In this document: positions 31,655-52,855 of the stretch, one piece after another
Layout of the letters: every line of letters begins with the position of its first letter
Position numbering within the stretch: the stretch's first letter is position 1
Source: Candidatus Thiopontia autotrophica
GTDB taxonomy: Bacteria > Pseudomonadota > Gammaproteobacteria > GCF-002020875
Assembly: GCA_014384675.1 (NCBI GenBank)
Contig: JACNFK010000020.1
Span: 3,954-67,953, forward strand
Length of the DNA: 64,000 bases
Direction: 5' to 3'
Program-made: the position numbers and the translations under genes
Notes under the pieces: generated by a model
The model's database searches: none
Told to the model about the DNA's origin: nothing
What the model saw: the letters and a program-made list of their open reading frames with translations, nothing else

Positions 31655-32281
31655 ATGAGCGATACCCAAACAAAAGTCCATGTCACCATTAACGGCAAAC
31701 AGATCCATGTCTCCTCGACACTATCTGTAATCCAGGCACTGTGGAAAGCAGGATATCCCCGCGTCCAGGGGGTTGGCTGTCTCGAGGGTGTATGTGGATC
31801 CTGCCGGGTATTGGTGCGTCGCGCAGAAACTGACGAGATAAGCATGGAGATGGGGTGCCAGACCCTGGTTGAGGATGGTATGGAGGTAATGTTTCTGGTC
31901 TTTCCGTCACCATCCCAGCATAGCTACAGTCTGGAACAGATACAAAATTCATGGGAGGTCCAGACCGAGTTCCACAAGATTTTTCCTGAAGCACAACAGT
32001 GCCGCAATTGTCACGGTTGTACAACATCATGCCCCAAGGATATTGATGTTGAGAAGGGGGTTGAGCTTGCGGTAAAGGGGCGTTTTAAAGAGGCCGGAGA
32101 CCTGTTTATTGAGTGTGTTATGTGTGATCTCTGCATGACCGGATGTCCTGAACAGATTGCTCCAAACCATGTTGGCCTGTTTGCTCGACGTGTGACCGCA
32201 TACTTTCACTCTCGCCCCTCCAACCTGATTAATCGCCTTGAAAAGATCCGTACTGGCGCCCTACAGGTGATCAAGGAGTAA
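31655..32281 (+). CDS. succinate dehydrogenase / fumarate reductase iron-sulfur subunit-like protein (short, 208 aa)
   Basis: [2Fe-2S] motif CLEGVCGSC (cf. SdhB CREGVCGSD) plus two Cys clusters, CRNCHGCTTSCP and CVMCDLCMTGCP, in the positions of the SdhB [4Fe-4S]/[3Fe-4S] sites. Confidence 0.8.
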   Translation: MSDTQTKVHVTINGKQIHVSSTLSVIQALWKAGYPRVQGVGCLEGVCGSCRVLVRRAETDEISMEMGCQTLVEDGMEVMFLVFPSPSQHSYSLEQIQNSWEVQTEFHKIFPEAQQCRNCHGCTTSCPKDIDVEKGVELAVKGRFKEAGDLFIECVMCDLCMTGCPEQIAPNHVGLFARRVTAYFHSRPSNLINRLEKIRTGALQVIKE

Positions 32282-32283
32282 TT

Positions 32284-33921
32284 ATGGATAAGGTCAATAA
32301 CGAGGCAATATCCTATCAGAAGGCAGTCGCCAACTATCGCATCAAACAGGAGCGGCCTCTGCCAATACCTGAAATTGATAGTGAAAAACTGTTAAACAGT
32401 TTTCACCCAGACTATATCGAAGAGTGCCTAACTACACTAAAGGTTGGAGCCAACAAGGGAGACCCTTGCCACAAACAGCTTGCCGATACACTGCAGTCAG
32501 ACTCAAGAATCAGTGAAGCTGATTTGGCAGGAGCCGCGACTGTAGAGACAGATGTACTGGTTATTGGTGGTGGTGGTGCAGGATGTGCTGCCGCACTGAT
32601 TGCACAACAACAGGGGGCCAGAGTAATCCTGGCTACAAAACTGCGTCTTGGGGATAGCAACACAGTAATGGCAGAGGGCGGTATTCAAGCCTCCATCAAC
32701 AAGGATGATTCGCCCCAATTCCACTATAACGACACCATGAGTGCCGGCCATCAGAAATCTGATCCTGACCTTGTATCTCAACTGGTGCTGGATGGACCTG
32801 ATGTTATTCGCTGGCTTATCCAGCAGGGCATGCAGTTTGATCTGGATGAGTTTGGTGACCTGCTTACCAGGCGTGCTGGTGGTACCTCAGCGGAACGCAT
32901 ATGTTTCTATCGTGACTACACTGGCCTGGAGATGATGCGAGTACTACGTGAATCTGTCCATAACAGCAACATTGATGTGTGGGACTACAGTCCAACAGTG
33001 GAGCTACTAGGGGATGATCAGGGTGGCTGCTCTGGAGCTGTTATCTCTTCACTGAAAAATCGAAAATATATCCAGATAAGCGCAAAGGCAGTTATTGTCG
33101 CAACTGGCGGCATTGGAAGAATGCACCTTAATGGTTTTCCAACATCAAACCATTTCGGTGCAACTGGTGATGGCCTGGTACTCTCCTATCGCATGGGAGC
33201 GCAACTGCGTGATCTTGACTCTTTTCAGTACCATCCAACTGGTCTTGCATACCCCTTCCACCTTGCAGGCAGCCTTATAACTGAAGGAGTTCGCTCCTGT
33301 GGAACCTATCTGTTAAACGGGAATGGAGAACGCTTTGTTGATGAGCTCTCCGCTCGAGATATTGTTGCTGCCGCCGTTATTCGTGAATGTCGTGAAGGTC
33401 GAGGCATAATTACAGAGGATGGCCATCAGGGAATCTGGCTGGACACCCCAGGGCTGGAGGCCAGGCAACCCGGGGTTCTGCAGAAGAGGTTTCCCAAGCT
33501 AATGCACCTGGGAGAGAAAGCCGAAATCAACCCGGCTGAAACACCACTACTTATATACCCTACCCTCCACTATCAGAACGGTGGTGTAGTAATTAATGAA
33601 GATTGTGAAACCTCAGTGCCAGGACTCTTCTCTACTGGTGAGGTAACCGGTGGAATTCACGGAAGAAATCGTCTTATGGGAAATGCTCTTCTTGAGATTA
33701 TCAGCTTTGGGCGTAAGGCAGGAGCTGCCGCCGCCAAAAAAAGAAAAGACAAACGCAGCAGTCAACTATCTATTGAGCACCTAAATACACTCCGTAGAGA
33801 GCTGACCAACGCAGAACTCTCTATGGATCTACAGGGACCAATACTCTTTCCTGAATATGCAAAATTTGATCTGGACTCAGATTATGTTGGTCTGCACCGT
33901 AACCGAAGGCAGAGCTCATGA
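32284..33921 (+). CDS. FAD-dependent fumarate reductase / L-aspartate oxidase-family flavoprotein with ~85-aa N-terminal extension
   Basis: GxGxxG VLVIGGGGAGCAAALIA, then MAEGGIQA (no His for covalent FAD, as in NadB and soluble FRDs), HPTGLAYPFHLAGSLITEGVRSCGTYLLNGNGERFVDELSARDIVAAAV (close to E. coli NadB FHPTALYHP...LTEALRGEGAYL...RDIVARAI), and GNALLEIISFGRKAG. Stop overlaps the next start (ATGA). Confidence 0.8.
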   Translation: MDKVNNEAISYQKAVANYRIKQERPLPIPEIDSEKLLNSFHPDYIEECLTTLKVGANKGDPCHKQLADTLQSDSRISEADLAGAATVETDVLVIGGGGAGCAAALIAQQQGARVILATKLRLGDSNTVMAEGGIQASINKDDSPQFHYNDTMSAGHQKSDPDLVSQLVLDGPDVIRWLIQQGMQFDLDEFGDLLTRRAGGTSAERICFYRDYTGLEMMRVLRESVHNSNIDVWDYSPTVELLGDDQGGCSGAVISSLKNRKYIQISAKAVIVATGGIGRMHLNGFPTSNHFGATGDGLVLSYRMGAQLRDLDSFQYHPTGLAYPFHLAGSLITEGVRSCGTYLLNGNGERFVDELSARDIVAAAVIRECREGRGIITEDGHQGIWLDTPGLEARQPGVLQKRFPKLMHLGEKAEINPAETPLLIYPTLHYQNGGVVINEDCETSVPGLFSTGEVTGGIHGRNRLMGNALLEIISFGRKAGAAAAKKRKDKRSSQLSIEHLNTLRRELTNAELSMDLQGPILFPEYAKFDLDSDYVGLHRNRRQSS

Positions 33922-35177
33922 GTGACTTATCAAAACTGAATCAGGTACTACTTCATCCTGATCGTCGCTTCGGTGCTGATCTCGATACCTGGCTGGTTGA
34001 TATTGGTGGTGACGGTCTGGAGAAAGCAATACTGAATCCGGAACATATTCTACCAACCATTCGTGAAGCAAAGTTACTGGGGCTCGGTGGTAGCGGGTTC
34101 CCAACCCATATCAAGTGGGAATTTGTAGCGAATGAACCGAGTGACCAGGACAAATATCTCATCTGTAACGGAAATGAAGATGAGCCGGGAACATTCAAAG
34201 ACCGAATCCTGCTTCAGGAGACCCCTCATCAGGTTATTGAAGGGGCAATTATTACCGCACTGGCCACTGGCACAAACCAGATTGTCTTCTATATAAATCC
34301 TGAACAGGAAGGTTCGCTTGAGGCGATGAAAGAGGCCACAAACCAGTGGAGTGAAACCGACTATGTAAACCAGGTCTCCAACATCCTTGGACGCCCTCTT
34401 GAGTTTTATATTGTTGCCAGCTCTGGTCACTATATTGGTGGTGAAGAGACTGCGGCAATTGAGTCTATTGAGGGCAAATTTCCATTTCCACGTGGCAAGC
34501 CACCATATCCTGCTAAAGCAGGACTATTTGGACTCCCTACACTGATTAATAATGTAGAGACCATGGCCAACGTCTCTCATATTATTCGCAATGGTGCAGA
34601 GTGGTTTATAAACCAGGGAGAGGGAGACTCGCACGGCACAAAGATCTTCTCCCTGAGTGGTGATGTACTACGTCCCGGAGCTTATGAACTCCCGATGGGT
34701 ACTCCCCTGTCTGACCTGATCCATATCCATGGTGGAGGCATGTTGCTGGACAGAAAACTCAAGGCAGTCTTTACCGGTGGCCCCTCCAACACAATCTTGA
34801 CACCAAAGGATCTGGATGTCCCGCTGGACTTTGACTCGGTGCAGGAGAGACGATCCAGCCTGGGTACAGGGGCAATGATCGTAATCTCAGAGGGGACAGG
34901 AGTTGTACGCCGGGTGACAGAATATGTCTCGTTCTTTGCAAACTCATCCTGTGGGCAGTGTCCTTCATGCAAAACAGGAACATTTTATGCGTCTCAACTG
35001 CTCTCGCGAATTGACAGCGGAAATGGAACCCGTGCCGATCTTGACACATTGATTAATCTAACCCGCATCCTCCCGGGAAGTGGCCGTTGCCATCTTTTGG
35101 ACGGGGCAATAAAACTGCTTGATAGCTCTCTCTACCATTTTATGGATGAATATGAGCAACCACTGAGACACAGCTAA
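33918..35177 (+). CDS. NuoF / 51-kDa-like NADH-binding FMN iron-sulfur flavoprotein
   Basis: GLGGSGFPTHIKWEF (NuoF GRGGAGFPTGLKW), YLICNGNEDEPGTFKDRILLQETPHQVIEGAIITALATG (NuoF [28 protein letters not shown]), GGEETAAIESIEGK, and [4Fe-4S] SCGQCPSCKTG (NuoF SCGQCTPCREG). Confidence 0.8.
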   Translation: MSDLSKLNQVLLHPDRRFGADLDTWLVDIGGDGLEKAILNPEHILPTIREAKLLGLGGSGFPTHIKWEFVANEPSDQDKYLICNGNEDEPGTFKDRILLQETPHQVIEGAIITALATGTNQIVFYINPEQEGSLEAMKEATNQWSETDYVNQVSNILGRPLEFYIVASSGHYIGGEETAAIESIEGKFPFPRGKPPYPAKAGLFGLPTLINNVETMANVSHIIRNGAEWFINQGEGDSHGTKIFSLSGDVLRPGAYELPMGTPLSDLIHIHGGGMLLDRKLKAVFTGGPSNTILTPKDLDVPLDFDSVQERRSSLGTGAMIVISEGTGVVRRVTEYVSFFANSSCGQCPSCKTGTFYASQLLSRIDSGNGTRADLDTLINLTRILPGSGRCHLLDGAIKLLDSSLYHFMDEYEQPLRHS

Positions 35178-35371
35178 ACAAACCTAAACTTCGGCGAAAT
35201 CTAGGTAAAAAACCGGTAATCGTCGGTTATTTTCTCCAAAAACCACAATACACACATAGCTTATATAGTCATTTCAGCTTGATTCCACACCCTGTTTCAT
35301 GAGATGATTAGCGGCTATTGCCACCGACCTGTCAAGGTCAACAAAAGAAAAAGCTCTGCGAGGAAATCGTT

Positions 35372-37259
35372 CGTGCAACCAACTAGCATCAAAGAAAATA
35401 TTGTAGAAATTGTAAGCGACTCTGGAGAAGGAGCCCAAAAATGTGGGCAGACCTTCGGAAATATAAGTGCCAAAATGAACAATGGAGTCTGGACGGTAGA
35501 AATTATCCCTGCCGAGATCCAGCCACCTGCGCGCACCCCATCTGGAGCCAGTGGTATTCGTATCCGCTTTGGCTCTAAATATATGACCAATGTCGGCAAT
35601 GAGGGTGACCTGGTTGTCGCCTTCAATGAACAGGTTCTCTACTCCAGAATAGCCAATGGTGCCTACAAAAAAGGCACTATTGTTCTGTTGGATAATCGCT
35701 GGGAAAGTGATGCTTCCACAGAAATTCAGGAGATGTATAGAAAGGCCGTTGTCGAATTCCGTGAGCATGGGCTGGTTGTCCATGAGCTACCGATCCACGA
35801 GGCCTGTCTGGAGGTAGTCAAAGACCCCCGCAAAGGGAAAAACATGTTTGTCCTCGGCATGCTCTGCCGAATCTATAACCGCGACAAAGAGATGAGCCGA
35901 AACGAGATTGCCATCACCTTTGCCGGCAAGAAAAACGCGATCATCACCAGCAATCAAAACCTGTTTGATGCTGGTTACGCCTTTGCAGAGAAGCATGTTG
36001 GCGACTATTTCTTTGATATTCCTCCAGCAGAAGAGATGGGCAGTCAGAAAATGGTTGTCACTAACGGGAATACTGCAATTGGTTTGGGGGTGATGGCCTC
36101 TGGAATGGAGTTAGTCTCCATGTACCCCATTACTCCGGCAACCTCTGCCTCACACTATCTGGCAGATGTTTACCCGGCAGCTGGAGGCTTCGTTCATCAG
36201 GCAGAGGATGAGATTGCGGCAATAGCATTTGCAATTGGTGCCTCCTACGCTGGCAAAACAGCCTGCACAATTACCTCAGGTCCAGGTATGGCACTGAAGA
36301 CCGAGAACATTGCTCTGGCAGTAATGGCAGAGATCCCGCTGGTGATTGTAGATGTTCAGCGTGGCGGGCCATCTACTGGTCTCCCCACCAAAATTGAGCA
36401 GGGAGACCTCCTCTCATCCCTTTATGGCATGCCTGGAGATGCGCCCAAGATTATACTTGCTGCCGCCACCATTGCTGAGTGTTTTAGTATGGTAGTGCTG
36501 GCCCGCAAACTGGCTGAAACCTTCCGCACCCCAGTAATCGTCTTGACAGATGCAAATCTGGCAACCGGGGTACAGCCTTGGGTACGTCCGGAATTGAGCC
36601 GTGACATGCTGGCACCACCACTGGATCAATCAGAATGGAACCCGGATGTTCCAGCCTATGACTGGGATGAAAAAACCGGGCTCTCACAACGCCCAATCCC
36701 GGGAATGCCCAGGGGTGAATATGTACTGACAGGCCTCTCTCACACCAAACAGAGCAAGGTATCCTATGAGTCGACCGAGAACCAGCACAGCACAAGCATG
36801 CGTAGTCGCAAACTGGCCACCTTGCAAAGCACCCTGACTCCTCCAGAAATACACGGTGACGAGAGTGGAGACCTGTTAGTTGTTGGCTGGGGTTCTACCT
36901 ATGGCGCAATCAACGAGGCAATTGATAATCTTCGTGAAAAAGGGAGCAAGGTCTCCTCAATACACCTACGATTCCTCTCTCCATTGGAGCCTGGACTAAA
37001 AGAGATTTTCTCTAGATTCAAAAAGGTAATTACGGTAGAGGTCAACTACAGTGACGACCCCAAGGCACCGATGATTACCGATGAGAACCGTCGCTACGCA
37101 CAGCTGGCTAGCATACTACGTATTCAGACTCTGGTTGATGTGGACTGCTGGTCAGTGGTCTATGGACACCCCCTGCAACCGGAACTTATTGAGAACGCCA
37201 TTCAGGAACGGTTGGATCAGGTTACTGACAACCGATCCTCACAGGACAAAGGAGAATAA
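35372..37259 (+). CDS. korA: 2-oxoglutarate:ferredoxin oxidoreductase subunit alpha, two-subunit type
   Basis: GTG start with GAGG 8 nt upstream gives MQPTSIKENIVEIVSDSGEGAQKCGQTFGNISAKMNNGVWTVEIIPAEIQPPARTP. This matches the conserved KorA N-terminus of two-subunit OFORs (SGDSGDG..QLTG....A..GND..T.PDFPAEIRAP). The track start at 35304 adds an implausible leader. Followed 2 nt later by korB. Confidence 0.85.
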
Positions 37260-37261
37260 CG

Positions 37262-38224
37262 ATGTTTGGAATCAAGGCAGATTGGTCCCTCGATATTCAG
37301 GAGCGTTACTTCACCCTGGATGATTATGAAGGAAATGAGGCACGCTGGTGCTCCGGATGTGGTGACCATGCAGTACTGGCAACAGCTCATCGCATCCTGC
37401 GTGATGCTCAGCTACCACCGGAAAAATCAGTTTTTGTCTCCGGAATCGGCTGCTCAAGCCGGATGCCACACTATATGGCAACTTATGGACTCCATGGGCT
37501 CCATGGTCGCGCCCTCCCTCTGGCCTGCGGGGTAAAATCTCGACGCCCAGATCTTGATGTATGGGTAGCTACCGGAGATGGTGACTGTTTCTCTATTGGT
37601 ACAGCTCACTGGATTCATGCCGTGCGTTATAACATGGATATGACAGTGCTTGTCTTTGACAACCAGATCTATGGATTGACCAAAAAGCAGACCTCTCCAA
37701 CCACCCCAATCGAGTTCAAGACCAGCACTCATCCGCAGGGAGCATCTCTGGATATGCTCAACCCCAATACAGTTACTCTGGGAATCACCAACGCATCATT
37801 TGTTGCGCAGGTTGTGGACTGGAACCCTCCCCTGCTGCACGAGACTCTGAAGGCGGCACACAAACACAAGGGGACAAGTTTTGTCAGAATCATTCAGCGT
37901 TGCCCGGTCTTTGTAGACTCCATTACCAAGGAGCTTCAGGAGGATGCCTCCAGACTGCGTCTACTGACCCATGAAAACGGGATCCCCGTCGCCAAGGGAA
38001 TTGAAAAGCTCTTTCCTGAAACCATGGAACATGACCCTGCAGATATGGCTGAAGCTCTTCAAATTGCACGTGACGAGACCGAGAAGGGAATCATTCCTGT
38101 TGGTCTCCTCTATCAGAATAGTAACATCCCTTGCTACAGTGACCTCTCTAGCGTCGGCCACGATGCTACGGATGAAATAAAGATTGCTGCAACCAATGAC
38201 GCCCTGGATGCGTTTGCGATCTAA
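37262..38224 (+). CDS. korB: 2-oxoglutarate:ferredoxin oxidoreductase subunit beta, TPP-binding
   Basis: N-terminal Cys cluster WCSGCGDH ... GIGCSS for the [4Fe-4S]. Canonical TPP motif GDGDCFSIG...(x27)...VFDNQIYGLT. Confidence 0.88.
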   Translation: MFGIKADWSLDIQERYFTLDDYEGNEARWCSGCGDHAVLATAHRILRDAQLPPEKSVFVSGIGCSSRMPHYMATYGLHGLHGRALPLACGVKSRRPDLDVWVATGDGDCFSIGTAHWIHAVRYNMDMTVLVFDNQIYGLTKKQTSPTTPIEFKTSTHPQGASLDMLNPNTVTLGITNASFVAQVVDWNPPLLHETLKAAHKHKGTSFVRIIQRCPVFVDSITKELQEDASRLRLLTHENGIPVAKGIEKLFPETMEHDPADMAEALQIARDETEKGIIPVGLLYQNSNIPCYSDLSSVGHDATDEIKIAATNDALDAFAI

Positions 38225-38242
38225 AGAGGAATATTCAACCCA

Positions 38243-45394: not shown

Positions 45395-45420
45395 ATTAGC
45401 AATTACAAGGAACGTAATTA

Positions 45421-46596
45421 ATGAACCTTCACGAATATCAATCCAAAGAGCTTTTTGAACAGGTTGGGATCCCCGTACCTGCTGGAGTAACCATCGAACG
45501 TCTTGGTGAGGTAGCGCAGGCTGCCAACGATATTGGTGGCGAGGCCTGGGTTGCCAAGGCGCAAGTCCATGCTGGTGGGCGCGGCAAGGCTGGAGGCGTA
45601 AAAATAGCAAAGAGCATTGATGAACTTTCTACCTTCAGTGATGAGATGCTGGGTAGCACCCTAACCACCCCTCAGACCCATGGTCGTGGCCTGCCTATCC
45701 AGAAGGTATTAATTGAACAGACACTGGATATCAGTAGAGAGTTATACCTTGGCGCACTGGTTGATCGCGATCGCGAACAGATTGTCTATATGGTATCTGC
45801 GGCTGGTGGAATGGATATCGAACAGGTTGCTGCCGAAACTCCCGAGAAGATACTTACAGTACATGCCCATAGTGCTGCTGGTCTGCAGCCATACCAATGC
45901 CGCCAACTGGCATTTGGGCTGGAGCTGGAGGGCAAACAGATTGGGATGTTGACCAAAATTGTTAGCGGTCTGCACCGTCTATTTACTCACAACGACTTTA
46001 GTCTGGTAGAGATTAACCCTCTTATAGTAACTGGTGATGGAGATCTTCTGGCGCTTGATGCCAAGATCAACCTGGATGATAACGCTCTCTATCGCCACCC
46101 GAAACTACAGGAACTACATGATCCGTCACAGGAAGATAGGACTGAACTCGAAGCAAGCAAACACGACCTGAACTATATAACTCTGGACGGCAATATTGGC
46201 TGCATGGTCAATGGTGCCGGTCTCGCTATGGCTACAATGGATCTGATCAAGCTCCATGGCGGAGACCCTGCAAACTTTCTTGATGTCGGTGGCGGTACAA
46301 CTGCAGAACGGGTAGCCGCTGCATTCAAGCTGATCCTCAGTGACGCCAAGGTAGAGGCCATTCTGGTAAATATCTTCGGTGGCATCGTGCGCTGTGATCT
46401 GATTGCCGAGGGAATAATCTCGGCTGTGAAGGAGGTTGGTATAGAGATCCCGGTAATTGTTCGTCTGGAGGGAACCAACGCTCCGCAAGGGATGGATCTC
46501 CTGAAAAACAGTGGACTCAACATTGATGTTGAAGAGACCCTTACAGGGGCTGCCAAGAAGGCAGTCTCTTCAACCAATAGCCAGGAGGGAGAGTAG
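45421..46596 (+). CDS. sucC: succinate--CoA ligase (ADP-forming) subunit beta
   Basis: [20 protein letters not shown]...[19 protein letters not shown] is near-collinear with E. coli SucC ([20 protein letters not shown]...[19 protein letters not shown]). Confidence 0.93.
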
Positions 46597-46598
46597 AG

Positions 46599-47474
46599 AT
46601 GAGCATTTTAATTAACAACGATACTCGTGTCATCGTCCAGGGCTTCACAGGCAAACAGGGCACATTCCACGCAGAGCAGTCAATTGCCTACGGAACAAAT
46701 ATTGTTGGAGGAGTAACCCCGGGGAAAGGTGGCCAGAGCCATCTTGACCGCCCTGTATTCAACACTGTAAAAGATGCTGTAGACGCTACCGGTGCTGATG
46801 CCAGCATGATCTATGTTCCTGCCGCCTTTGCGGCGGACGCAATCTTTGAGGCTGCTGCCGGTGGTATCAAGACGATCGTATGCATTACCGAGGGCATTCC
46901 TGTTCAGGACATGATCAAGGTAAAGGCATTCCTGAAAGACTTTCCAGACACCCGCCTTATCGGACCCAACTGTCCAGGCATCATCACCCCCGGAGCCTGC
47001 AAGATTGGAATCATGCCTGGCAATATTCACCAGGAGGGGGCAATTGGCATAGTCTCCCGTTCTGGCACCCTCACCTATGAAGCGGTCTTCCAGACCACCA
47101 ATGAGGGTCTTGGACAGAGTACCTGTATCGGTATTGGAGGAGATCCAATCCATGGCATGAATTTTATCGACTGTCTGGAGCTGTTCCAGCAGGATGAACA
47201 GACCAGGGGAATTGTACTGGTTGGTGAGATTGGTGGCAGCAAAGAGGAGGAGGCCGCAGAGTATATTCGCCAGAATGTAACAAAGCCGGTAGTAGCATAT
47301 ATTGCCGGAGTGACCGCACCTCCAGGACGCAGAATGGGTCATGCAGGTGCAATCATCTCTGGTGGCAAGGGAACAGCGGAAGACAAGATAAGCGCCCTTG
47401 AGGCAGCCGGGGTCACAGTCTCCCGCTCTCCTGCCGAGATCGGAAAACATATGGCTGCATTACTGAACAGTTAA
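46599..47474 (+). CDS. sucD: succinate--CoA ligase subunit alpha
   Basis: [24 protein letters not shown], phospho-His loop [14 protein letters not shown], and CoA-binding fold. Confidence 0.93.
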
Positions 47475-47487
47475 CCATTAATAGTTT

Positions 47488-48837
47488 ATGGGTCTCCTTT
47501 CACTTTTCAGACAGAGCTTTGCACACGGTGTACACCCTGCCCACAACAAGGGGCAGACTGCAGACCTTGCAATTCAGCGGGTACCTTTTGGTCACCGTTA
47601 TGTAATGCCGCTGGGGCAACATATAGGTGCGCCAGCCATAGCTGTTGTAAAAAAAGGTCAGAGCGTGAAACGTGGAGAGATGATTGCCAAACCGGGAGGC
47701 TTCATATCTACCGCTCTACACAGCCCAGTCACCGGCACAGTAAGTGAAATAAGCCCTCAACGCACACTGGATGGATCATTTAAACCAGCCATTGTCATCG
47801 AGGCTGATCCATTTTCCACCCAGAGGGTAGAGACCACCCCTCCCCCATCCTGGGAGACCATCTCTCTGGATGATTTTATTGAACTTGTACAGCAGGCAGG
47901 AGTAGTTGGAATGGGTGGTGCAGCATTCCCCAGCCATGTTAAATACTCGATTCCAGACGGCATCGTGATTGATGATCTGCTGATCAATGGTGCAGAGTGT
48001 GAGCCGTTCCTTACCAACGATCATCGCTTAATGGTTGAGCAGCCAGAAAAAGTTATTAACGGAACCGAAATCCTGCGCCAAAAACTTGGGGCCAAGAGAG
48101 CCAATATTGGCGTAGAGAAAAATAAGCCAGAGGCGATTGTAAATCTCCAAAAAGCTCTTGATAAAAACCCGGAACTGCCAATAACCATAACCCCTCTGGA
48201 GGTGAAGTATCCCCAGGGTGCAGAGAAGATGTTGATTCAATCTGTCTACCACAAAGAGGTTCCTGCCGGTCAACTACCGAGAGATATCGGGGTTGCTGTC
48301 AACAACAGCGGCACCGTTGTAGCGATTGCTGACCTCTTTGCAACCGGATCCCCACTTATTGAACGGGTGGTCACAGTCTCTGGCCCTGGCATTGATCAAC
48401 CAGCAAATCTTCTGGTTCCACTTGGTACTCCAGTCAGGGATGTATTGAAATTCTGTGGTGGGCTCAATGACAAAACTCGAGAGGTAATAATGGGTGGTCC
48501 CATGATGGGATTTCCTATAGCCAGTCTGGATGTTCCCATTCTAAAGGGAAGCTCAGCCATTCTTGCATTTACCGAGCAAGAGACAGCCAGACCCCATGAG
48601 TACCCATGCATTAGATGTGGGCGCTGCCTGGAGGCATGCCCATACTTTCTCAATCCATCACGGCTGGCACTGTTAAGTCGCAACAGACGTTATGAAGAGA
48701 CTATTGATTACCATGTAATGGATTGTGTTGAGTGCGGTGCATGCAGCTTTGCATGCCCATCCAATATCCCGATTGTGCAGTTGATTAGAACAGCCAAAGA
48801 CAATATGCGCCAGCACCCTGTCGAGGAGGCAGCATGA
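47488..48837 (+). CDS. rnfC: Rnf complex subunit C
   Basis: N-terminal GVHPAHNKGQT...PLGQHIGAPA, Rossmann-like GMGGAAFP, and two C-terminal [4Fe-4S] motifs (CIRCGRCLEACP, CVECGACSFACP). Confidence 0.9.
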   Translation: MGLLSLFRQSFAHGVHPAHNKGQTADLAIQRVPFGHRYVMPLGQHIGAPAIAVVKKGQSVKRGEMIAKPGGFISTALHSPVTGTVSEISPQRTLDGSFKPAIVIEADPFSTQRVETTPPPSWETISLDDFIELVQQAGVVGMGGAAFPSHVKYSIPDGIVIDDLLINGAECEPFLTNDHRLMVEQPEKVINGTEILRQKLGAKRANIGVEKNKPEAIVNLQKALDKNPELPITITPLEVKYPQGAEKMLIQSVYHKEVPAGQLPRDIGVAVNNSGTVVAIADLFATGSPLIERVVTVSGPGIDQPANLLVPLGTPVRDVLKFCGGLNDKTREVIMGGPMMGFPIASLDVPILKGSSAILAFTEQETARPHEYPCIRCGRCLEACPYFLNPSRLALLSRNRRYEETIDYHVMDCVECGACSFACPSNIPIVQLIRTAKDNMRQHPVEEAA

Positions 48838-49850
48838 ACAGGGATGACCCGAATCTTCTGCTGCAGCCATCACCTCTGGTAAAACAGGGGCTGACTGTAC
48901 CGACTGCAATGCGTGACGTGTTGTTGGCACTTATGCCTGCACTATTTGCAGGGATCTGGTTCTTTGGCCTGAGTGCACTGCTGGTGGTTACTGCGACCAC
49001 TCTTGGTGCCTTGATGACAGAGTGGGTTTTTACCTCCAGAGAGAGCCGCTCCATTACGCTTGGTGATGGCAGTGCACTACTTACTGGAATATTACTGGGT
49101 ATGACCCTACCACCTGCTCTTCCGCTGTGGATGGCGTGGCTGGGAGGAGTAGTTGCTATTGGGCTCGGCAAGATAATCTGGGGAGGTCTTGGTAATAATC
49201 TATTCAACCCTGCCATTGTGGGTCGTGCCTTTCTGCTTGGAACATTTCCAATAGCAATGACGACATGGCATATCGCTGCGGGGCCTGACAGTTTCTTCAG
49301 CCTACACCCAAGCACCCTTGCCATGCCATTCATGCAGTCTCCCCCCATGGATGGCATGAGTGCCGCAACCCCACTTGGCCTGATGAAGTTTGAGCAGATT
49401 GATACCCCAATATTCTCCCTGATGTTTGGCAACACCTCTGGCTCACTTGGAGAGACCAGTGGCCTGCTACTGATGGTTGGAGGACTATACCTGCTGTTAC
49501 GTCGTGCGCTGGAGTGGAGAATACCACTGGCAATCTTTCTCTCTGTAGGGGTCTTTACCCTACTGTTACAGGCAATCGATCCAGCCCGTTTCCCAGATAT
49601 CCATTTCACCCTCTTCTCTGGCGGAATGATGCTTGGTGCAATCTACATGGCAACCGACCCTGTCACCTCACCTGTCACTACAAAAGGGGCATGGATATTT
49701 GGTTGCGGAGTTGGATTCCTGGTAGTGCTAATTCGTAACTTTGGTGGGCTACCAGAGGGGATACTATATGCCATTCTCTTTATGAATGCCGCCACCCCAC
49801 TGATTAACCGTTATACCCAACCCAGAGTCTTTGGCCGGAGCAGGAAATGA
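48834..49850 (+). CDS. rnfD: Rnf complex subunit D
   Basis: Polytopic NqrB/RnfD-family membrane protein. Overlaps the rnfC stop by 4 nt. Has the conserved FMN-attachment region. Confidence 0.88.
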   Translation: MNRDDPNLLLQPSPLVKQGLTVPTAMRDVLLALMPALFAGIWFFGLSALLVVTATTLGALMTEWVFTSRESRSITLGDGSALLTGILLGMTLPPALPLWMAWLGGVVAIGLGKIIWGGLGNNLFNPAIVGRAFLLGTFPIAMTTWHIAAGPDSFFSLHPSTLAMPFMQSPPMDGMSAATPLGLMKFEQIDTPIFSLMFGNTSGSLGETSGLLLMVGGLYLLLRRALEWRIPLAIFLSVGVFTLLLQAIDPARFPDIHFTLFSGGMMLGAIYMATDPVTSPVTTKGAWIFGCGVGFLVVLIRNFGGLPEGILYAILFMNAATPLINRYTQPRVFGRSRK

Positions 49851-50482
49851 GTGACGAACCCACCTCCACCCGCCTGATCTCCACACTGGCAATAGCTGGG
49901 CTAATTTCAGGCGTGGCAATTGTTGCCATCTATGAGGCTACTCTGCAGACAATTACCGACAATAAAGCCAGAGAGTTGAGAGAGGCTGTATTCAAGGTGT
50001 TGCCAGGGGTAAGTGAGATGAAAAAGTTTCAGCTAGATGCAGACGGCCTGCGTTTCCGTACAGAAAAAGGTAAAGATGAAAACACCCTTTACGGTGGATA
50101 TAACCAGCATGGAGAGTTCGTCGGTTATGCCCTCCCCAGTGCCGGTCCGGGGTTTCAGGACACTATCGGGATACTGTATGGATATATTCCAGAGTCACGT
50201 AAAGTAGTAGGTATGGAGATTCTGGAGAGCCGTGAGACTCCAGGGCTTGGAGACAAAATATACAAGGACCTCTCATTTGTATCCAATTTTGATAATCTTG
50301 CTATTGATCCAGAAATAGTTACCGTGAAAAAAGGGATGAAGAACGCTCCCAATGAAGTTGATGCCATTACAGGTGCAACCATCTCAGCAAAAGCTGTGGT
50401 TCGTATTATCAACGAGGGTAATGAGCGCTGGTTAAACAGGCTTCCTACCCACGGCATTCCACTACATGAGGGAGCCAGATAG
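49847..50482 (+). CDS. rnfG: Rnf complex subunit G (FMN-binding)
   Basis: N-terminal anchor and the covalent-FMN site context DAITGATISAKAV. Confidence 0.88.
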   Translation: MSDEPTSTRLISTLAIAGLISGVAIVAIYEATLQTITDNKARELREAVFKVLPGVSEMKKFQLDADGLRFRTEKGKDENTLYGGYNQHGEFVGYALPSAGPGFQDTIGILYGYIPESRKVVGMEILESRETPGLGDKIYKDLSFVSNFDNLAIDPEIVTVKKGMKNAPNEVDAITGATISAKAVVRIINEGNERWLNRLPTHGIPLHEGAR

Positions 50483-50484
50483 TC

Positions 50485-51138
50485 ATGGCAAAAACACCTG
50501 AAAGCGCGTACCAGGAGATGCTCAAGGGGATCTGGAGAGACAACCCTGTCTTTGTCCAGGTACTCGGAATGTGCCCCATGCTGGCGGTCACCAACTCTGC
50601 TGTCAATGCATTGGCGATGGGGCTAGCCACATTCTTTGTGCTGGTAGGCTCCAGCCTGCTGGTCTCACTAATGCGCAAGTGGATTCCCAAACAGGTTCGT
50701 ATCTCCAGCTACATCATCATTATCGCCACCTTTGTAACCATCATCGACTATACCCTGCTGGCAATCTTTCCCAAGATCCACAAAGAGCTAGGAGCGTTCA
50801 TCCCGCTGATTACCGCAAACTGCCTGATCCTGGGGCGCCAGGAGGCCTTCGCCTCACGCAACAGTGTCCGCTTTGCGGTAATGGATGCGGTGGGTATGGC
50901 GGGAGGATTCCTCTTCGCCCTGCTGGCACTTGGTGGGGTGCGCGAGATTCTCGGTGAGGGGGCACTGTTTGGGGTCTCACTCTTCGGACCCAACTTTGAA
51001 CCATGGATAATCATGATCCTGCCACCTGGCGGCTTCCTTACCCTGGGGCTGATTCTGCTCTTCTTCAACTGGGTCACAGAGAAGCGCAGAGAGGCACAGA
51101 TGCGTATGCTGCAACCGGCTGAGGAGAGAGCGTCATGA
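50485..51138 (+). CDS. rnfE: Rnf complex subunit E
   Basis: NqrD/RnfE family: NPVFVQVLGMCPMLAVT ... LITANCLILGR. Confidence 0.88.
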   Translation: MAKTPESAYQEMLKGIWRDNPVFVQVLGMCPMLAVTNSAVNALAMGLATFFVLVGSSLLVSLMRKWIPKQVRISSYIIIIATFVTIIDYTLLAIFPKIHKELGAFIPLITANCLILGRQEAFASRNSVRFAVMDAVGMAGGFLFALLALGGVREILGEGALFGVSLFGPNFEPWIIMILPPGGFLTLGLILLFFNWVTEKRREAQMRMLQPAEERAS

Positions 51139-51728
51139 TGACAGATGCCGCCTTCCAGCACTTCCTCTGGATTTTCGTCAGTGCTCTGTTGGTAAACAAC
51201 TTTGTGCTGGCATACTTTCTTGGGCTCTGCCCATTCCTGGGTGTCTCCGGAAAGCTCGAAACCTCATTCAGGCTTGGGCTTGCCACCACCTTTGTACTGA
51301 TTATCACCGCCATCTGTGCCTGGATACTCAACACCTACGTACTTCCCCATGCACCATACCTGCGACTGATCAGCTTTATTGTGGTGATTGCCAGCGTAGT
51401 ACAATTTATCGAGATGCTGATCAAAAAGCTCAGCCCCTCTCTATTCCGCTCACTTGGAATCTTCCTGCCGCTGATCACCACCAACTGCGCCATCCTGGGG
51501 CTTGCCATATTTGCCACCAACCGTGAATATGGGTTTGCTGAAAGCATTATCTTCGCCCTTGGTGCCGGAGGCGGATTCACCCTGGCACTGCTGCTTATGG
51601 CCGGACTTCGTGAGGAGAGTGAACTATCCGATGTTCCAACCCTGATACGTGGCACTGCATTTAATCTGATTATTGCAGGCATCCTCTCCATGGCCTTTAT
51701 GGGCTTTGCCGGACTCTTCTCGTCATGA
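51135..51728 (+). CDS. rnfA: Rnf complex subunit A
   Basis: NqrE/RnfA family: FVLAYFLGLCPFLGVS ... LPLITTNCAILG. Confidence 0.88.
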   Translation: MMTDAAFQHFLWIFVSALLVNNFVLAYFLGLCPFLGVSGKLETSFRLGLATTFVLIITAICAWILNTYVLPHAPYLRLISFIVVIASVVQFIEMLIKKLSPSLFRSLGIFLPLITTNCAILGLAIFATNREYGFAESIIFALGAGGGFTLALLLMAGLREESELSDVPTLIRGTAFNLIIAGILSMAFMGFAGLFSS

Positions 51729-51916
51729 CGGGATATATCATCTCTATCCTTGCATTGATCGCCCTGCTAGTTGGCTGGGTGCTGTTTCAGGAGTGGCTGA
51801 AGAAGAGGGATCCCCAACAGTTTGGATATAAACCAGGATGTGACGCCTGTGCCAGCAAGGATAACTGCTCTGCCCAGAAACCAGACAACACAATAAAATT
51901 TACAACACCTAAATAG
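51725..51916 (+). CDS. small membrane protein (63 aa) with Cys-rich tail, translationally coupled to rnfA
   Basis: ATGA overlap with the rnfA stop. One TM helix (IISILALIALLVGWVLF), then KPGCDACASKDNC. Confidence 0.4.
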   Translation: MTGYIISILALIALLVGWVLFQEWLKKRDPQQFGYKPGCDACASKDNCSAQKPDNTIKFTTPK

Positions 51917-51919
51917 ACT

Positions 51920-52855
51920 ATGAGTTTACAGACCAGAAAAATTGCCCTCGTTGGTGGTGGCCAGATAGGCACAGCACTAGCCCTTATGATCACCCAGAAA
52001 GATCATGCCGAAGTAGTCATTGTTGATCTGCCAGAAGCAGTCGACCCTATCAAGGGCAAGGCACTTGATATCATGGCACTACGCCCCCACGCCGGTGTTG
52101 ATGTAGAGATTACTGCAACCAGTGACTACAGCAAGATAGCGGATGCCGAGGTTGTGATCGTAACAGCAGGTATTCCACGCAAAGCTGGCATGAGTCGTAA
52201 CGACCTGCTGGAGATAAATCTTGGGGTTATCGAATCCGTCGCCAAAGAGGTTGCCACTCACGCCCCCAATGCGTTTGTTGTCCTGTCAACAAACCCTGTA
52301 GATACCATGTGTCAGGCCTTCCAGCGCCACTCTGGTTTTCCTAAAAATCGTGTAATCGGCCTCTCTGGTGCTCTGGACAGCGGACGCTTTCGTCTGTTTA
52401 TCGCCATGGAGACCGGCTTCTCTGCCAAGGATGTCTCCTGCATGGTAATGGGTGGGCATGGCCCATCAATGATCCCCCTGACCAGAACTGCAACTGTTGG
52501 CGGCATCCCCATCCAGACCCTGCTATCAGATGAGAAGATCGAGGAGATTGTCGAACGTACCCGTCACGCCGGAACCGAGATTGTTCAACTTATGGGGCAA
52601 GGCAGCGCCTACATAAGCCCTGCCTCTGCAATTATGGAGATGGTTGAGGCCTACCTGTACAACAAGAAGAGACTTATTGCATCCTCTGTGCGTTGTGATG
52701 GAGAGTATGGGATCAATGACTGCTTCATAGGTGTGCCTTGTGTGATCGGCGCTGGTGGTGTGGAAAAGATAGTAGAGATGGAGCTGACTGCTAGTGAACA
52801 GTCCCAGCTCAAAACCAACTACCAATCACTACTGGAAAACATAAAACAGATCTGA
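51920..52855 (+). CDS. mdh: malate dehydrogenase (LDH-like type)
   Basis: IALVGGGQIGTALALMI NAD-binding fold, catalytic-loop IPRKAGMSRNDLL, and MVMGGHG, typical of tetrameric LDH-like MDHs. Confidence 0.9.
   Translation: MSLQTRKIALVGGGQIGTALALMITQKDHAEVVIVDLPEAVDPIKGKALDIMALRPHAGVDVEITATSDYSKIADAEVVIVTAGIPRKAGMSRNDLLEINLGVIESVAKEVATHAPNAFVVLSTNPVDTMCQAFQRHSGFPKNRVIGLSGALDSGRFRLFIAMETGFSAKDVSCMVMGGHGPSMIPLTRTATVGGIPIQTLLSDEKIEEIVERTRHAGTEIVQLMGQGSAYISPASAIMEMVEAYLYNKKRLIASSVRCDGEYGINDCFIGVPCVIGAGGVEKIVEMELTASEQSQLKTNYQSLLENIKQI

What the first reader, a model, noticed from the sequence alone, without database searches (positions are those of the whole stretch)
31655..52855. A 21-kb co-directional block combining reductive-TCA-type enzymes with a complete Rnf complex
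Fourteen or fifteen tightly spaced or overlapping + strand genes: SdhB-like Fe-S subunit, NadB/FrdA-like flavoprotein, NuoF-like module, korA, korB, the 839-aa Fd-domain unknown, rnfB, the PFOR-like 1258-aa protein, sucC, sucD, rnfC, rnfD, rnfG, rnfE, rnfA, a micro-ORF and mdh. Fumarate reductase, succinyl-CoA synthetase, 2-oxoglutarate:ferredoxin oxidoreductase, a pyruvate-synthase-like enzyme and MDH are the core of the reductive TCA cycle, and ppc sits 4 kb upstream. Rnf genes are physically interleaved here (rnfB before the PFOR-like gene, rnfCDGEA after sucCD). That suggests reduced ferredoxin for the two 2-oxoacid synthases is generated in situ by ion-gradient-driven NADH:Fd reverse electron flow. 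No citrate-cleaving enzyme, aconitase, IDH or fumarase is in the window. The citrate step is therefore either elsewhere or served by one of the two unassigned proteins. I cannot verify from sequence alone whether this organisation has been described.
Basis: partly seen in the sequence, partly recalled or inferred. Interest (0 to 1): 0.88.

Follow-up and report, generated by a model that had tools for sequence, protein, structure and literature searches.

The report
Rnf-linked 2-oxoglutarate synthase gene cluster
This is a real 21-kb gene block in a Black Sea sulfur-oxidising bacterium (Candidatus Thiopontia) that joins part of the TCA cycle to an Rnf ion pump, but the same cluster is already described in tubeworm symbionts, it does not amount to a reductive TCA cycle, and its two mystery proteins are catalytically dead copies of pyruvate:ferredoxin oxidoreductase.

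Summary
Window 31655-52855 carries 17 co-directional, tightly packed + strand genes. They are a Fe-S protein, a FrdA-like flavoprotein, a NuoF-like protein, korA, korB, an 839-aa protein (p839), rnfB, a 1258-aa PFOR-like protein (pPFOR), sucC, sucD, rnfC, rnfD, rnfG, rnfE, rnfA, a 63-aa ORF and mdh.

The window comes from Candidatus Thiopontia, which is published as a Calvin-cycle sulfur oxidiser. The core order korAB-p839-rnfB-pPFOR-(sucCD)-rnfCDGEA is conserved in sulfur-oxidising Gammaproteobacteria: 319 species genomes encode a p839 relative. Rubin-Blum et al. 2019 already described this cluster in tubeworm symbionts and proposed the same Rnf-to-ferredoxin idea.

The rTCA reading is only partly supported. 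KorAB is an intact oxoglutarate:ferredoxin oxidoreductase. The "pyruvate-synthase-like" protein has lost the TPP-activating Glu, the TPP-Mg motif, the proximal cluster cysteines and, in this lineage, domain III. p839 is its paralogue: a PFOR domain VI fold plus a C-terminal ferredoxin domain, also without cofactor motifs. Neither can cleave citrate.

The most likely function is an Rnf-driven reductive branch from oxaloacetate to 2-oxoglutarate, possibly reversible. The dead PFOR paralogues may act as Fe-S adaptors between RnfB and KorAB. This is a new member of a known cluster, of moderate interest.

The parts
31483..31557 (+). tRNA-Glu(CTC), followed by a hairpin and T-run, directly upstream of the block. 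It marks the upstream boundary and is not a functional part.
   Evidence: ARAGORN; Rfam tRNA, 58.4 bits; sequence read.
31655..32281 (+). 208-aa Fe-S subunit with one 2Fe-2S and two 4Fe-4S Cys motifs. Proposed electron wire of a soluble NADH-linked fumarate-reductase-like complex.
   Evidence: Fer2_4 and Fer4_9 hits. 12 Cys in three motifs. SdhB models score far below cutoff. Conserved with the next two genes in 21 of 56 loci.
32284..33921 (+). 545-aa FrdA/SdhA/NadB-superfamily flavoprotein with non-covalent FAD, a conserved 85-aa N-terminal extension and no C-terminal Succ_DH_flav_C domain. Putative fumarate reductase catalytic subunit.
   Evidence: FAD_binding_2, 264.7 bits. Best NCBIfam hits are TfrA, NadB and SdhA, all below cutoff. 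Equivalents of FrdA His232, Arg287, His355 and Arg390 are kept, and His44 is Asn. Arg-Ala stands where NadB has Glu121.
33918..35177 (+). 419-aa NuoF-like NADH/FMN/4Fe-4S module, the proposed NADH entry point of the trio.
   Evidence: Complex1_51K, SLBB and NADH_4Fe-4S hits. nuoF_fam 389.9 bits, below the 558.65 cutoff, so a paralogue. Its start overlaps the flavoprotein gene's end by 4 nt.
35304..37259 (+). korA, the alpha subunit (domains III, I, II) of the two-subunit 2-oxoglutarate:ferredoxin oxidoreductase.
   Evidence: TIGR03710 499 bits, above cutoff. Best PDB match is Magnetococcus OGOR 6N2N_A, E 6e-80.
37262..38224 (+). korB, the beta subunit, with intact TPP and 4Fe-4S motifs.
   Evidence: TPP_enzyme_C hit. 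6N2N_B, E 4e-48, with CxxC, GCSS, GDGD and C214 present.
38243..40762 (+). p839: a PFOR domain V/VI-derived protein without TPP or proximal-cluster motifs, with a C-terminal single-cluster ferredoxin domain (Cys766, 769, 772, 808, 812). Proposed tethered electron carrier or adaptor for KorAB.
40771..41634 (+). rnfB, the long polyferredoxin type with 20 Cys. It is separated from rnfCDGEA by pPFOR and sucCD.
   Evidence: PF04060 and Fer4 hits. TIGR01944 78.3 bits, above cutoff, and PRK07118-type models. Cys count.
41618..45394 (+). pPFOR: a 1258-aa catalytically degenerate PFOR paralogue. It has domains I, II, V (two 4Fe-4S motifs) and VI, lacks domain III, and has a C-terminal coiled coil.
   Evidence: Colinear with PFOR 6cin/7plm. 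Glu64, CxGCGE, TGCS, GGDG and YSNTGG are lost across the family. No Cys after residue 684. About 200 aa are deleted relative to the ~1500-aa relatives, at the region where canonical PFOR P0198 also has ~200 extra residues, i.e. domain III.
45421..46596 (+). sucC, the succinyl-CoA synthetase beta subunit.
   Evidence: NF001913 562.7 bits, above cutoff.
46599..47474 (+). sucD, the succinyl-CoA synthetase alpha subunit.
   Evidence: NF004230 473.6 bits, above cutoff.
47488..51728 (+). rnfC (47488-48837), rnfD (48834-49850), rnfG (49847-50482), rnfE (50485-51138) and rnfA (51135-51728).
   Evidence: TIGR01945, TIGR01946, TIGR01948 and TIGR01943 score above cutoff. rnfG scores 95.9 against 102. Overlapping starts and stops.
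51725..51916 (+). 63-aa small membrane protein with one TM helix and a Cys-rich tail, translationally coupled to rnfA. Candidate accessory subunit of this Rnf type.
   Evidence: ORF listed. tblastn finds it directly after rnfA in 17 or more loci of diverse lineages (E down to 1e-16). Only a weak FeoB_associated hit, E 0.063.
51920..52855 (+). mdh, an NAD-dependent malate dehydrogenase of the LDH-like type.
   Evidence: TIGR01763 358.4 bits, above cutoff. This position is specific to the window's lineage.
24609..27458 (+). ppc, PEP carboxylase. It lies 4.2 kb upstream, is not part of the operon, and may feed oxaloacetate.
   Evidence: PF00311 1029 bits.

Best explanation
The block is the Candidatus Thiopontia copy of a gene cluster conserved in sulfur-oxidising Gammaproteobacteria. 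[quoted passage not shown]

Proposed operation, reductive direction:
1. Mdh reduces oxaloacetate (from Ppc) to malate.
2. A fumarase encoded elsewhere gives fumarate.
3. The Fe-S/flavoprotein/NuoF-like trio reduces fumarate to succinate with NADH.
4. SucCD activates succinate to succinyl-CoA.
5. KorAB carboxylates succinyl-CoA to 2-oxoglutarate, using low-potential electrons that Rnf pushes uphill from NADH at the expense of the ion gradient.

The two large PFOR-derived proteins keep only Fe-S modules: p839 has a C-terminal ferredoxin domain and pPFOR has two 4Fe-4S clusters in domain V. I propose they act as non-catalytic electron-transfer adaptors or scaffolds between RnfB and KorAB.

The result would be an anaplerotic, CO2-assimilating branch that makes succinate and 2-oxoglutarate/glutamate in a Calvin-cycle autotroph. 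KorAB-Rnf could run in reverse when organic carbon is oxidised.

Shown: gene identities, intact KorAB motifs, loss of catalytic motifs in pPFOR and p839, their PFOR ancestry, and conserved synteny.

Inferred: substrate of the trio, direction of flux, any physical coupling, and co-transcription.
For: - Identities and order.
- Organism: p839 is 100% identical to a Candidatus Thiopontia MAG protein. The lineage is described with rDsr and the Calvin cycle.
- Synteny: among the best 80 of 319 species genomes, korAB precedes p839 in 62 of 66 loci and rnfB+pPFOR follow in 51 of 59. sucCD is present in 21 of 56 and the trio in 21 of 56. The same order holds in Endoriftia, Vondammii and Endothiovibrio.
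- KorB keeps its Cys and GDG motifs, and the closest solved structure is the Magnetococcus OGOR.
- pPFOR motif losses.
- p839 is PFOR domain VI plus a ferredoxin domain.
- p839 and pPFOR evolve much faster (median 44% and 39% identity) than neighbouring enzymes (65-82%), as expected for non-catalytic proteins.
- The flavoprotein keeps the dicarboxylate-binding His/Arg set and lacks the NadB Glu. By established redox potentials (NADH/NAD+ about -320 mV, fumarate/succinate about +30 mV), an NADH-linked enzyme can run only towards succinate.
- Prior literature describes the orthologous korAB-PFOR-rnf cluster, reports its co-transcription, and proposes Rnf-supplied ferredoxin.
- Endoriftia KorA(3), KorB(3) and the adjacent 'PFOR-like ferredoxin' are co-regulated.
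Against: - No biochemical data exist for any protein of this cluster.
- OGORs are reversible. Rubin-Blum et al. argue that the dimeric KorAB may complete an oxidative TCA cycle where 2-oxoglutarate dehydrogenase is missing.
- The trio is absent from more than half of the related loci, so it is not essential to the core module.
- Its substrate is inferred only from conserved residues.
- The adaptor role of p839 and pPFOR has no direct evidence. They could be regulators or relics.
- Fumarase is not in the window.
- Simple promoter and terminator scans cannot show whether the block is one transcript.
Confidence: 0.6

Rival explanations
1. One reading: the block is the core of a complete autotrophic reductive TCA cycle with two ferredoxin-dependent 2-oxoacid synthases fed by Rnf. 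Citrate cleavage is encoded elsewhere or performed by one of the unknown proteins.
For: - A fumarate-reductase-like trio, SucCD, KorAB, Mdh, Ppc and Rnf are all present.
- The nearest solved KorAB structure is from the rTCA organism Magnetococcus.
- Tubeworm symbionts that carry this cluster also run an rTCA cycle.
Against: - pPFOR lacks every catalytic OFOR motif and domain III.
- p839 is a PFOR paralogue, not a citrate-cleaving enzyme.
- No ACL, CCS/CCL, aconitase or IDH is in the window.
- Thiopontia is reported with the Calvin cycle only.
- The cluster occurs in many sulfur oxidisers generally regarded as Calvin-cycle autotrophs (Thiodiazotropha, Thiosymbion, Chromatiaceae). Their carbon-fixation mode rests and my own knowledge, not on a test here.
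- In Endoriftia the true rTCA genes sit in a different ACL/korABCD operon.
- In Endoriftia the orthologues of this block respond oppositely to sulfide limitation.
Confidence: 0.1
2. Oxidative variant: KorAB replaces 2-oxoglutarate dehydrogenase in an oxidative or branched TCA cycle. Rnf re-oxidises the reduced ferredoxin, making NADH and pumping ions. SucCD yields ATP, so the cluster is an energy-conserving catabolic module for storage compounds or organic acids.
For: - Rubin-Blum et al. note that tubeworm symbionts lack the 2-oxoglutarate decarboxylase subunit and have gltA next to the cluster (gltA and mdh seen upstream in Endoriftia).
- sucCD sits with korAB where sucAB would sit in other bacteria.
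- acs is in the window.
- OGOR and Rnf are both reversible (established knowledge).
Against: - An NADH-linked fumarate reductase cannot oxidise succinate.
- ppc and mdh fit oxaloacetate reduction.
- Whether Thiopontia lacks sucAB is unknown.
- In Endoriftia, expression is highest when sulfide is replete, not under energy limitation when stores would be burnt.
Confidence: 0.22
3. Anaerobic redox-balancing module: under anoxia without nitrate the cell ferments stored carbon and uses fumarate as an electron sink (NADH to succinate). KorAB and Rnf adjust the ferredoxin/NADH balance.
For: - The soluble NADH-type fumarate-reductase architecture.
- The habitat at a sulfidic/anoxic interface.
- Similar ideas have been raised for large sulfur bacteria.
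Against: - The trio is missing in most loci that keep the korAB-rnf core.
- No fermentation genes are seen in the window.
- It overlaps with, rather than excludes, the main explanation.
Confidence: 0.08

Closest known systems
The second TCA gene cluster (korAB, 'PFOR', TCA enzymes, rnfABCDGE) of vestimentiferan tubeworm symbionts (Escarpia, Riftia; Candidatus Endoriftia persephone). Rubin-Blum, Dubilier and Kleiner 2019, mSphere, Text S1 Notes 2 and 4 and Fig. S4 (PMC6315080).
   Same: The Endoriftia locus has the same genes in the same order: Fe-S, flavoprotein, NuoF-like, korA, korB, p839 homologue, rnfB, PFOR-like, sucC, sucD. p839 is 43-46% identical. The authors had already proposed that Rnf recycles reduced ferredoxin for OGOR and PFOR, and reported co-transcription of rnf with the por genes.
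   Different: - In the window, rnfCDGEA, the micro-ORF and mdh follow directly after sucCD. In Endoriftia mdh and gltA lie upstream on the other strand.
- The Thiopontia pPFOR is a short form without domain III.
- The published description treats the PFOR-like gene as a functional PFOR. Here it is shown to lack the catalytic motifs.
- Thiopontia is not known to carry the separate ACL/korABCD/Hdr-Flx rTCA operon.
Two-subunit 2-oxoglutarate:ferredoxin oxidoreductase of Magnetococcus marinus MC-1 (PDB 6N2N/6N2O)
   Same: It is the best solved-structure match to KorA (E 6e-80) and KorB (E 4e-48). It shares the alpha (III-I-II) and beta architecture, a single 4Fe-4S cluster and no built-in ferredoxin domain.
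   Different: The Magnetococcus enzyme is not known (to my knowledge) to be encoded next to PFOR-derived accessory proteins or inside an rnf operon. KorA here is about 80 aa longer.
Single-chain pyruvate:ferredoxin oxidoreductase (Desulfovibrio africanus 1B0P, Moorella thermoacetica 6CIN)
   Different: pPFOR has lost the TPP-activating Glu, the TPP-Mg motif and the proximal 4Fe-4S ligands; p839, which has no domain I, lacks the latter two. Domain III is absent here. Both carry extra coiled-coil and ferredoxin modules.
Rnf complexes with the rnfB...CDGEA gene order and a long polyferredoxin RnfB (PRK07118-type RnfB models; gene-order classes recalled from Biegel et al. 2011, which I could not read)
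   Same: All six subunits are present, RnfB is the long type, and the order is B then CDGEA.
   Different: 4.9 kb of non-rnf genes (pPFOR, sucCD) are inserted between rnfB and rnfC, and a conserved 63-aa Cys-rich membrane protein follows rnfA.
Soluble NADH-dependent fumarate reductase of Hydrogenobacter thermophilus (FrdABCDE; recalled from Miura et al. 2008, not read here)
   Same: The idea is the same: a soluble, NADH-linked fumarate reductase serving a reductive TCA branch.
   Different: The subunit composition differs. Here a NuoF-like module and a 2Fe-2S/2x4Fe-4S protein accompany the flavoprotein, which lacks the C-terminal domain. No activity has been measured.

Membership tests
Reductive TCA (Arnon-Buchanan) cycle gene set | Citrate cleavage enzyme (ATP-citrate lyase, or citryl-CoA synthetase plus lyase) | tested here: not met
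   None is in the window. The two unassigned proteins are PFOR paralogues. The rest of the genome could not be searched.
Reductive TCA (Arnon-Buchanan) cycle gene set | 2-oxoglutarate:ferredoxin oxidoreductase | tested here: met
   KorA passes TIGR03710. KorB keeps the TPP and cluster motifs. The closest structure is 6N2N. Substrate specificity is inferred, not measured.
Reductive TCA (Arnon-Buchanan) cycle gene set | Pyruvate synthase (functional PFOR) | tested here: not met
   pPFOR lacks Glu64, GGDG/YSNTGG, CxGCGE/TGCS and domain III.
Reductive TCA (Arnon-Buchanan) cycle gene set | Fumarate reductase | tested here: inconclusive
   The FrdA-like flavoprotein keeps the His/Arg substrate set and lacks the NadB Glu. 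It scores below every curated cutoff and has no measured activity.
Rnf complex (RnfABCDGE) | All six subunits present | tested here: met
   The TIGR01943, 01944, 01945, 01946 and 01948 models (RnfA-E) pass. RnfG scores 95.9 against a cutoff of 102, with an FMN_bind domain.
2-oxoacid:ferredoxin oxidoreductase (catalytic) - pPFOR, 41618-45394 | TPP binding (GDG-X-N motif and activating Glu) and a proximal 4Fe-4S cluster | tested here: not met
   The alignment with five canonical PFORs and two intact intermediates shows all these motifs replaced in all 28 family members. There is no Cys after residue 684.
2-oxoacid:ferredoxin oxidoreductase (fold/ancestry) - pPFOR and p839 | Homology to PFOR domains | tested here: met
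SdhB/FrdB iron-sulfur subunit - 208-aa protein | Match to SdhB family models (2Fe-2S, 4Fe-4S, 3Fe-4S arrangement) | tested here: not met
   TIGR00384 scores 23.3 bits against a cutoff of 88. The domains are Fer2_4 plus a dicluster Fer4.
L-aspartate oxidase (NadB) - 545-aa flavoprotein | NadB-specific Glu121 (diagnostic role recalled from my own knowledge) and a score above the TIGR00551 cutoff | tested here: not met
   Arg-Ala stands at the Glu121 position in the alignment with E. coli NadB. The score is 300.9 bits against a cutoff of 452.75.
Tubeworm-symbiont korAB-PFOR-rnf cluster (Rubin-Blum 2019) | Orthologous genes in the same order | tested here: met
   Endoriftia, Escarpia and Lamellibrachia symbiont loci share the order Fe-S, flavoprotein, NuoF-like, korA, korB, p839, rnfB, pPFOR, sucC, sucD (L004, L051, L056, L062).
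Single operon | Co-transcription across 31.6-52.9 kb | not testable with these tools
   Only indirect signs are available: overlapping or near-abutting genes. A 126-nt gap with a weak hairpin lies before korA, and the trio is absent from many loci. These suggest at least two units.

The most novel reading that the evidence does not exclude
p839 and pPFOR are not relics. They are dedicated Fe-S adaptor subunits that dock KorAB onto RnfB. This would create a membrane-bound supercomplex that uses the ion gradient to drive NADH-dependent reductive carboxylation of succinyl-CoA, or the reverse, without a freely diffusing ferredoxin. Such an arrangement would be shared by hundreds of sulfur-oxidising Gammaproteobacteria, built from pseudo-enzyme copies of PFOR.
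Probability: 0.2. Interest if true: 0.75.

Novelty: new member of a known kind. Interest (0 to 1): 0.4.

Why it matters
Candidatus Thiopontia (the BS-GSO2 clade) is among the most abundant sulfur oxidisers at the Black Sea and Cariaco redoxclines. An Rnf-driven route to succinate and 2-oxoglutarate would add CO2 assimilation on top of the Calvin cycle, and it would shape how these cells balance reductant.

Gene-marker surveys that count korAB, 'PFOR' and frd as evidence of an rTCA cycle would over-call it here, because the 'PFOR' is catalytically dead.

The conserved pair of PFOR-derived pseudo-enzymes between korAB and rnf is a concrete, testable lead on a long-standing question: how low-potential electrons reach oxygen-sensitive 2-oxoacid synthases in microaerobic bacteria.

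Tried and rejected
- Citrate-cleaving role for the unknowns: rejected. Both are PFOR paralogues.
- Flavoprotein as L-aspartate oxidase: rejected on the Glu121 position and the sub-cutoff score.
- Electron-bifurcating (HydABC/Bfu-type) reading of the NuoF-like subunit: not favoured. It is a minimal NuoF module with no NuoE-like partner and no extra ferredoxin domains.
- Literature search for a NuoF-linked NADH:fumarate reductase: nothing relevant.
- Search for 'PFOR-like': only Mitchell et al. 2024 is relevant.
- Loci where p839 stands alone (large sulfur bacteria) and a Thiosymbiont insertion between korB and p839: the surrounding genes were uninformative and unrelated.
- Promoter and terminator scans: promoter-like hits were fewer than in shuffles and there was no convincing internal terminator, so operon structure is unresolved.
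- Rfam: only three tRNAs, no riboswitch.
- Biegel et al. 2011 on rnf gene orders is not held, so that comparison rests on memory.
- The second structure-prediction job was not used. pPFOR exceeds the stated single-protein length limit, and the motif evidence was already decisive.

Full report

Yes. Between 31655 and 52855 there are sixteen long + strand ORFs plus one 63-aa ORF. Neighbouring genes overlap by up to 17 nt or are separated by at most 26 nt. The exceptions are a 126-nt gap before korA and a 191-nt gap after rnfA, and the micro-ORF fills the latter.

Pfam and NCBIfam give these identities:

| Coordinates | Product |
|---|---|
| 31655 | 208-aa protein with one 2Fe-2S and two 4Fe-4S motifs |
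| 32284 | 545-aa FAD_binding_2 flavoprotein |
| 33918 | 419-aa NuoF-like protein |
| 35304, 37262 | korA, korB |
| 38243 | 839-aa protein (p839), with only a C-terminal Fer4_13 hit |
| 40771 | rnfB |
| 41618 | 1258-aa PFOR-like protein (pPFOR) |
| 45421, 46599 | sucC, sucD |
| 47488-51728 | rnfC, rnfD, rnfG, rnfE, rnfA |
| 51920 | mdh |

ppc lies 4.2 kb upstream. The rest of the window holds housekeeping genes, acs, cytochromes c, fccAB and the pan/folK/pcnB genes. It holds no citrate synthase or lyase, aconitase, IDH or fumarase.

**2. Where does it come from?**

p839 and pPFOR are 100% identical to proteins of a MAG labelled Candidatus Thiopontia, and the same contigs recur in several assemblies. 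Thiopontia autotrophica represents the BS-GSO2 clade of the Black Sea. It is described as having rDsr sulfur oxidation, the Calvin cycle and complete denitrification (PMC8359478). A second paper assigns reverse-TCA potential in a Thiopontia-containing habitat to other phyla.

**3. Is the arrangement conserved, and is it already known?**

A scan of one genome per species found 319 genomes encoding a p839 relative. The best 80 are all sulfur-oxidising Gammaproteobacteria:
- Thiopontia-like MAGs
- Sedimenticola, Thiodiazotropha, Thiosymbion
- Thiohalomonadaceae
- Chromatiaceae, including the cultured Thiorhodococcus minor
- Thiomargarita and Parabeggiatoa
- the Escarpia and Lamellibrachia symbionts; the Riftia symbiont (Endoriftia) was found separately through the protein search

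tblastn with the window's proteins gives these synteny counts among loci with enough flank:
- korAB immediately upstream of p839 in 62 of 66 loci
- rnfB plus pPFOR immediately downstream in 51 of 59 loci
- rnfCDGEA after that in most loci
- sucCD inserted in 21 of 56 loci
- the Fe-S/flavoprotein/NuoF-like trio upstream in 21 of 56 loci

Gene calls in Endoriftia, Vondammii and Endothiovibrio confirm the order.

Rubin-Blum, Dubilier and Kleiner (2019) describe exactly this second TCA cluster in tubeworm symbionts. It holds korAB with a 'PFOR', bidirectional TCA enzymes and an rnfABCDGE set 'colocalized and cotranscribed' with the por genes. They propose that Rnf recycles reduced ferredoxin for OGOR and PFOR. 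The Thiopontia block is a new member of that cluster type.

**4. What are the two unassigned proteins?**

pPFOR is colinear with single-chain PFOR in domains I, II, V and VI. I aligned 28 family members with two intact intermediates and five canonical PFORs. The whole family has replaced these features:
- the TPP-activating Glu (EMQSE becomes ESGSAR or GPRGA)
- the proximal-cluster cysteines (CxGCGE becomes EPGSGE; TGCS becomes PGTA)
- the TPP-Mg motif (GGDG...YSNTGG becomes GND...DLGF)

The window protein has no cysteine after residue 684. Compared with the ~1500-aa relatives in other lineages it also lacks about 200 residues, at the position of domain III, the CoA-binding domain. Only the two 4Fe-4S motifs of domain V survive. 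By contrast KorB keeps CxxC, GCSS, GDGD and the fourth Cys.

p839 gave an AlphaFold model of mean pLDDT 78. It matches PFOR and OFOR beta subunits:
- Foldseek E 3.5e-7
- a profile-profile comparison aligns the p839 family with residues ~519-1258 of the pPFOR family at probability 100%, E 3.6e-78
- p839 aligns at E 1e-73 with the last 590 residues of P0180

P0180 is a 1732-aa OFOR that keeps all catalytic motifs and ends in the same Fer4_13 domain. At the GDG position p839 reads PAT.

Both unknowns are therefore paralogous, PFOR-derived proteins stripped of cofactor sites. p839 keeps a C-terminal single-cluster ferredoxin domain and pPFOR keeps a two-cluster ferredoxin domain. They evolve much faster (median 44% and 39% identity outside the Thiopontia clade) than the enzymes around them (65-82%). 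Neither can be a pyruvate synthase or a citrate-cleaving enzyme.

**5. What is the upstream trio?**

The flavoprotein belongs to the FrdA/SdhA/NadB superfamily but is below every curated cutoff.
- It keeps the equivalents of E. coli FrdA His232, Arg287, His355 and Arg390.
- It has Asn in place of the covalent-FAD His44.
- It has Arg-Ala where E. coli NadB has Glu121, which I recall as diagnostic for aspartate oxidase.
- It carries a conserved 85-aa N-terminal extension and lacks the usual C-terminal domain.

Its partners are a minimal NuoF-like NADH/FMN module and a small 2Fe-2S/2x4Fe-4S protein, which is not SdhB. The simplest reading is a soluble NADH:fumarate reductase. On standard potentials this would run only towards succinate. 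That is an inference; no relative is characterised, and database names are generic.

**6. How does the block most likely work?**

The pieces fit a reductive branch, as laid out in the best explanation: oxaloacetate (Ppc) to malate (Mdh), to fumarate (fumarase elsewhere), to succinate (the trio, with NADH), to succinyl-CoA (SucCD), to 2-oxoglutarate (KorAB). The low-potential electrons would come from Rnf running in reverse on the ion gradient.

The block encodes no free ferredoxin. The only ferredoxin-like modules are RnfB, pPFOR domain V and the p839 tail, and these genes sit between korB and rnfC in most genomes. I therefore propose that p839 and pPFOR wire or dock KorAB to RnfB. This step is inferred.

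The direction is uncertain. OGOR and Rnf are reversible, and Rubin-Blum et al. argue for an oxidative role where 2-oxoglutarate dehydrogenase is missing.

Expression data from Endoriftia show that KorA(3), KorB(3) and the adjacent 'PFOR-like ferredoxin' (the p839 orthologue by position) fall together under sulfide limitation. The ACL/korABCD rTCA operon rises under the same condition. So this module is regulated separately from the true rTCA cycle.

**7. Verdict on the interpretation**

It is partly supported. The reductive-type enzymes and the Rnf link are real. There is, however, one functional 2-oxoacid synthase rather than two, no candidate for citrate cleavage, and no indication of a full rTCA cycle in an organism reported to use the Calvin cycle. 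The cluster's wide occurrence in sulfur oxidisers generally regarded as Calvin-cycle autotrophs (their carbon-fixation mode was not tested here) points to an anaplerotic, redox or TCA-variant role.

**8. Novelty and score**

As posed, the finding is a new member of a known cluster type. What seems under-appreciated is this. The papers I could search treat the gene as 'PFOR' or 'PFOR-like'. In fact the PFOR-like pair is catalytically dead, paralogous and near-universally wedged between korAB and rnf. A small Cys-rich membrane protein also follows rnfA. That gives a testable adaptor or supercomplex hypothesis of moderate-to-high interest if true. I rate overall interest at 0.4.

**9. Limits**

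- I could not search the rest of the genome.
- Co-transcription could not be tested.
- The rnf gene-order comparison and the NadB Glu121 criterion rest on my own knowledge.
- No protein in the cluster has been studied biochemically.

Noticed in passing
window 51725-51916 (+): A 63-aa ORF with one TM helix and a Cys-rich tail (GCDAC...C). It overlaps the rnfA stop by 4 nt and ends 3 nt before mdh. Homologues sit directly after rnfA in 17 or more loci from Thiodiazotropha, Sedimenticola, Chromatiaceae and Thiohalomonadaceae. It may be an unrecognised accessory subunit of this Rnf type. It has only a weak FeoB_associated hit (E 0.063).
   Followed up: partly
window 31483-31557 (+), hairpin and T-run to ~31616: tRNA-Glu(CTC) with its own terminator-like hairpin lies about 100 nt upstream of the block's first start codon. 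This leaves only ~40 nt for a promoter. No sigma-70-like site was found there.
   Followed up: partly
window 41618-45394, compared with P0127-P0179, L004 and L005: The Thiopontia clade carries a short pPFOR (1258-1291 aa) lacking ~200 aa at the domain III position. More distant relatives of the GCF-002020875 family and all other lineages keep ~1420-1580-aa forms.
   Followed up: yes
P0180 (1732 aa) and P0182 (1635 aa, Flavobacteriales MAG): These are long OFORs that keep all catalytic motifs and share the unusual C-terminal coiled coil. P0180 also has the Fer4_13 domain seen in p839. They look like the active ancestor type of both pseudo-enzymes.
   Followed up: partly
window 32284-32540 (flavoprotein residues 1-85): The N-terminal extension (FHPDY..., GD.CH.QLA..LQSD.RI.EADLAG) is conserved across all sulfur-oxidiser homologues and absent from NadB. 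Its function is unknown.
   Followed up: no
window 35178-35303: The 126-nt gap between the NuoF-like gene and korA holds a weak hairpin (35211-35228). Some sources call korA 23 codons shorter (628 aa). With the trio absent from many loci, this suggests a separate transcription unit.
   Followed up: partly
window 16784-22959 (+): A dihaem cytochrome c, an ankyrin-repeat protein (336 aa), fccB-like and fccA-like flavocytochrome c sulfide dehydrogenase genes, and an FGE-sulfatase-domain protein. This is a sulfide-oxidation neighbourhood, with an ankyrin protein that is unusual for bacteria.
   Followed up: no
window 14586-16571 (+): Acetyl-CoA synthetase (acs) lies next to the tig-clpP-clpX-lon-ppiD housekeeping cluster. 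It is a possible acetate entry point relevant to the oxidative-versus-reductive question.
   Followed up: no
window 8506-10950 (-) and 56863-59277 (+): Two Lon protease paralogues occur within 50 kb.
   Followed up: no
L025 7743-9770 (Candidatus Thiosymbion ectosymbiont): An unrelated 675-aa gene with no Pfam hit is inserted between korB and p839, and rnfB/pPFOR are missing downstream within 10 kb. In Thiomargarita and Parabeggiatoa loci (L061, L083) rnfD and rnfG lie upstream on the opposite strand.
   Followed up: partly
L004 12550-12972 (Endoriftia): A 140-aa 23S_rRNA_IVP-family gene is inserted between the p839 homologue and rnfB in the Riftia symbiont.
   Followed up: no
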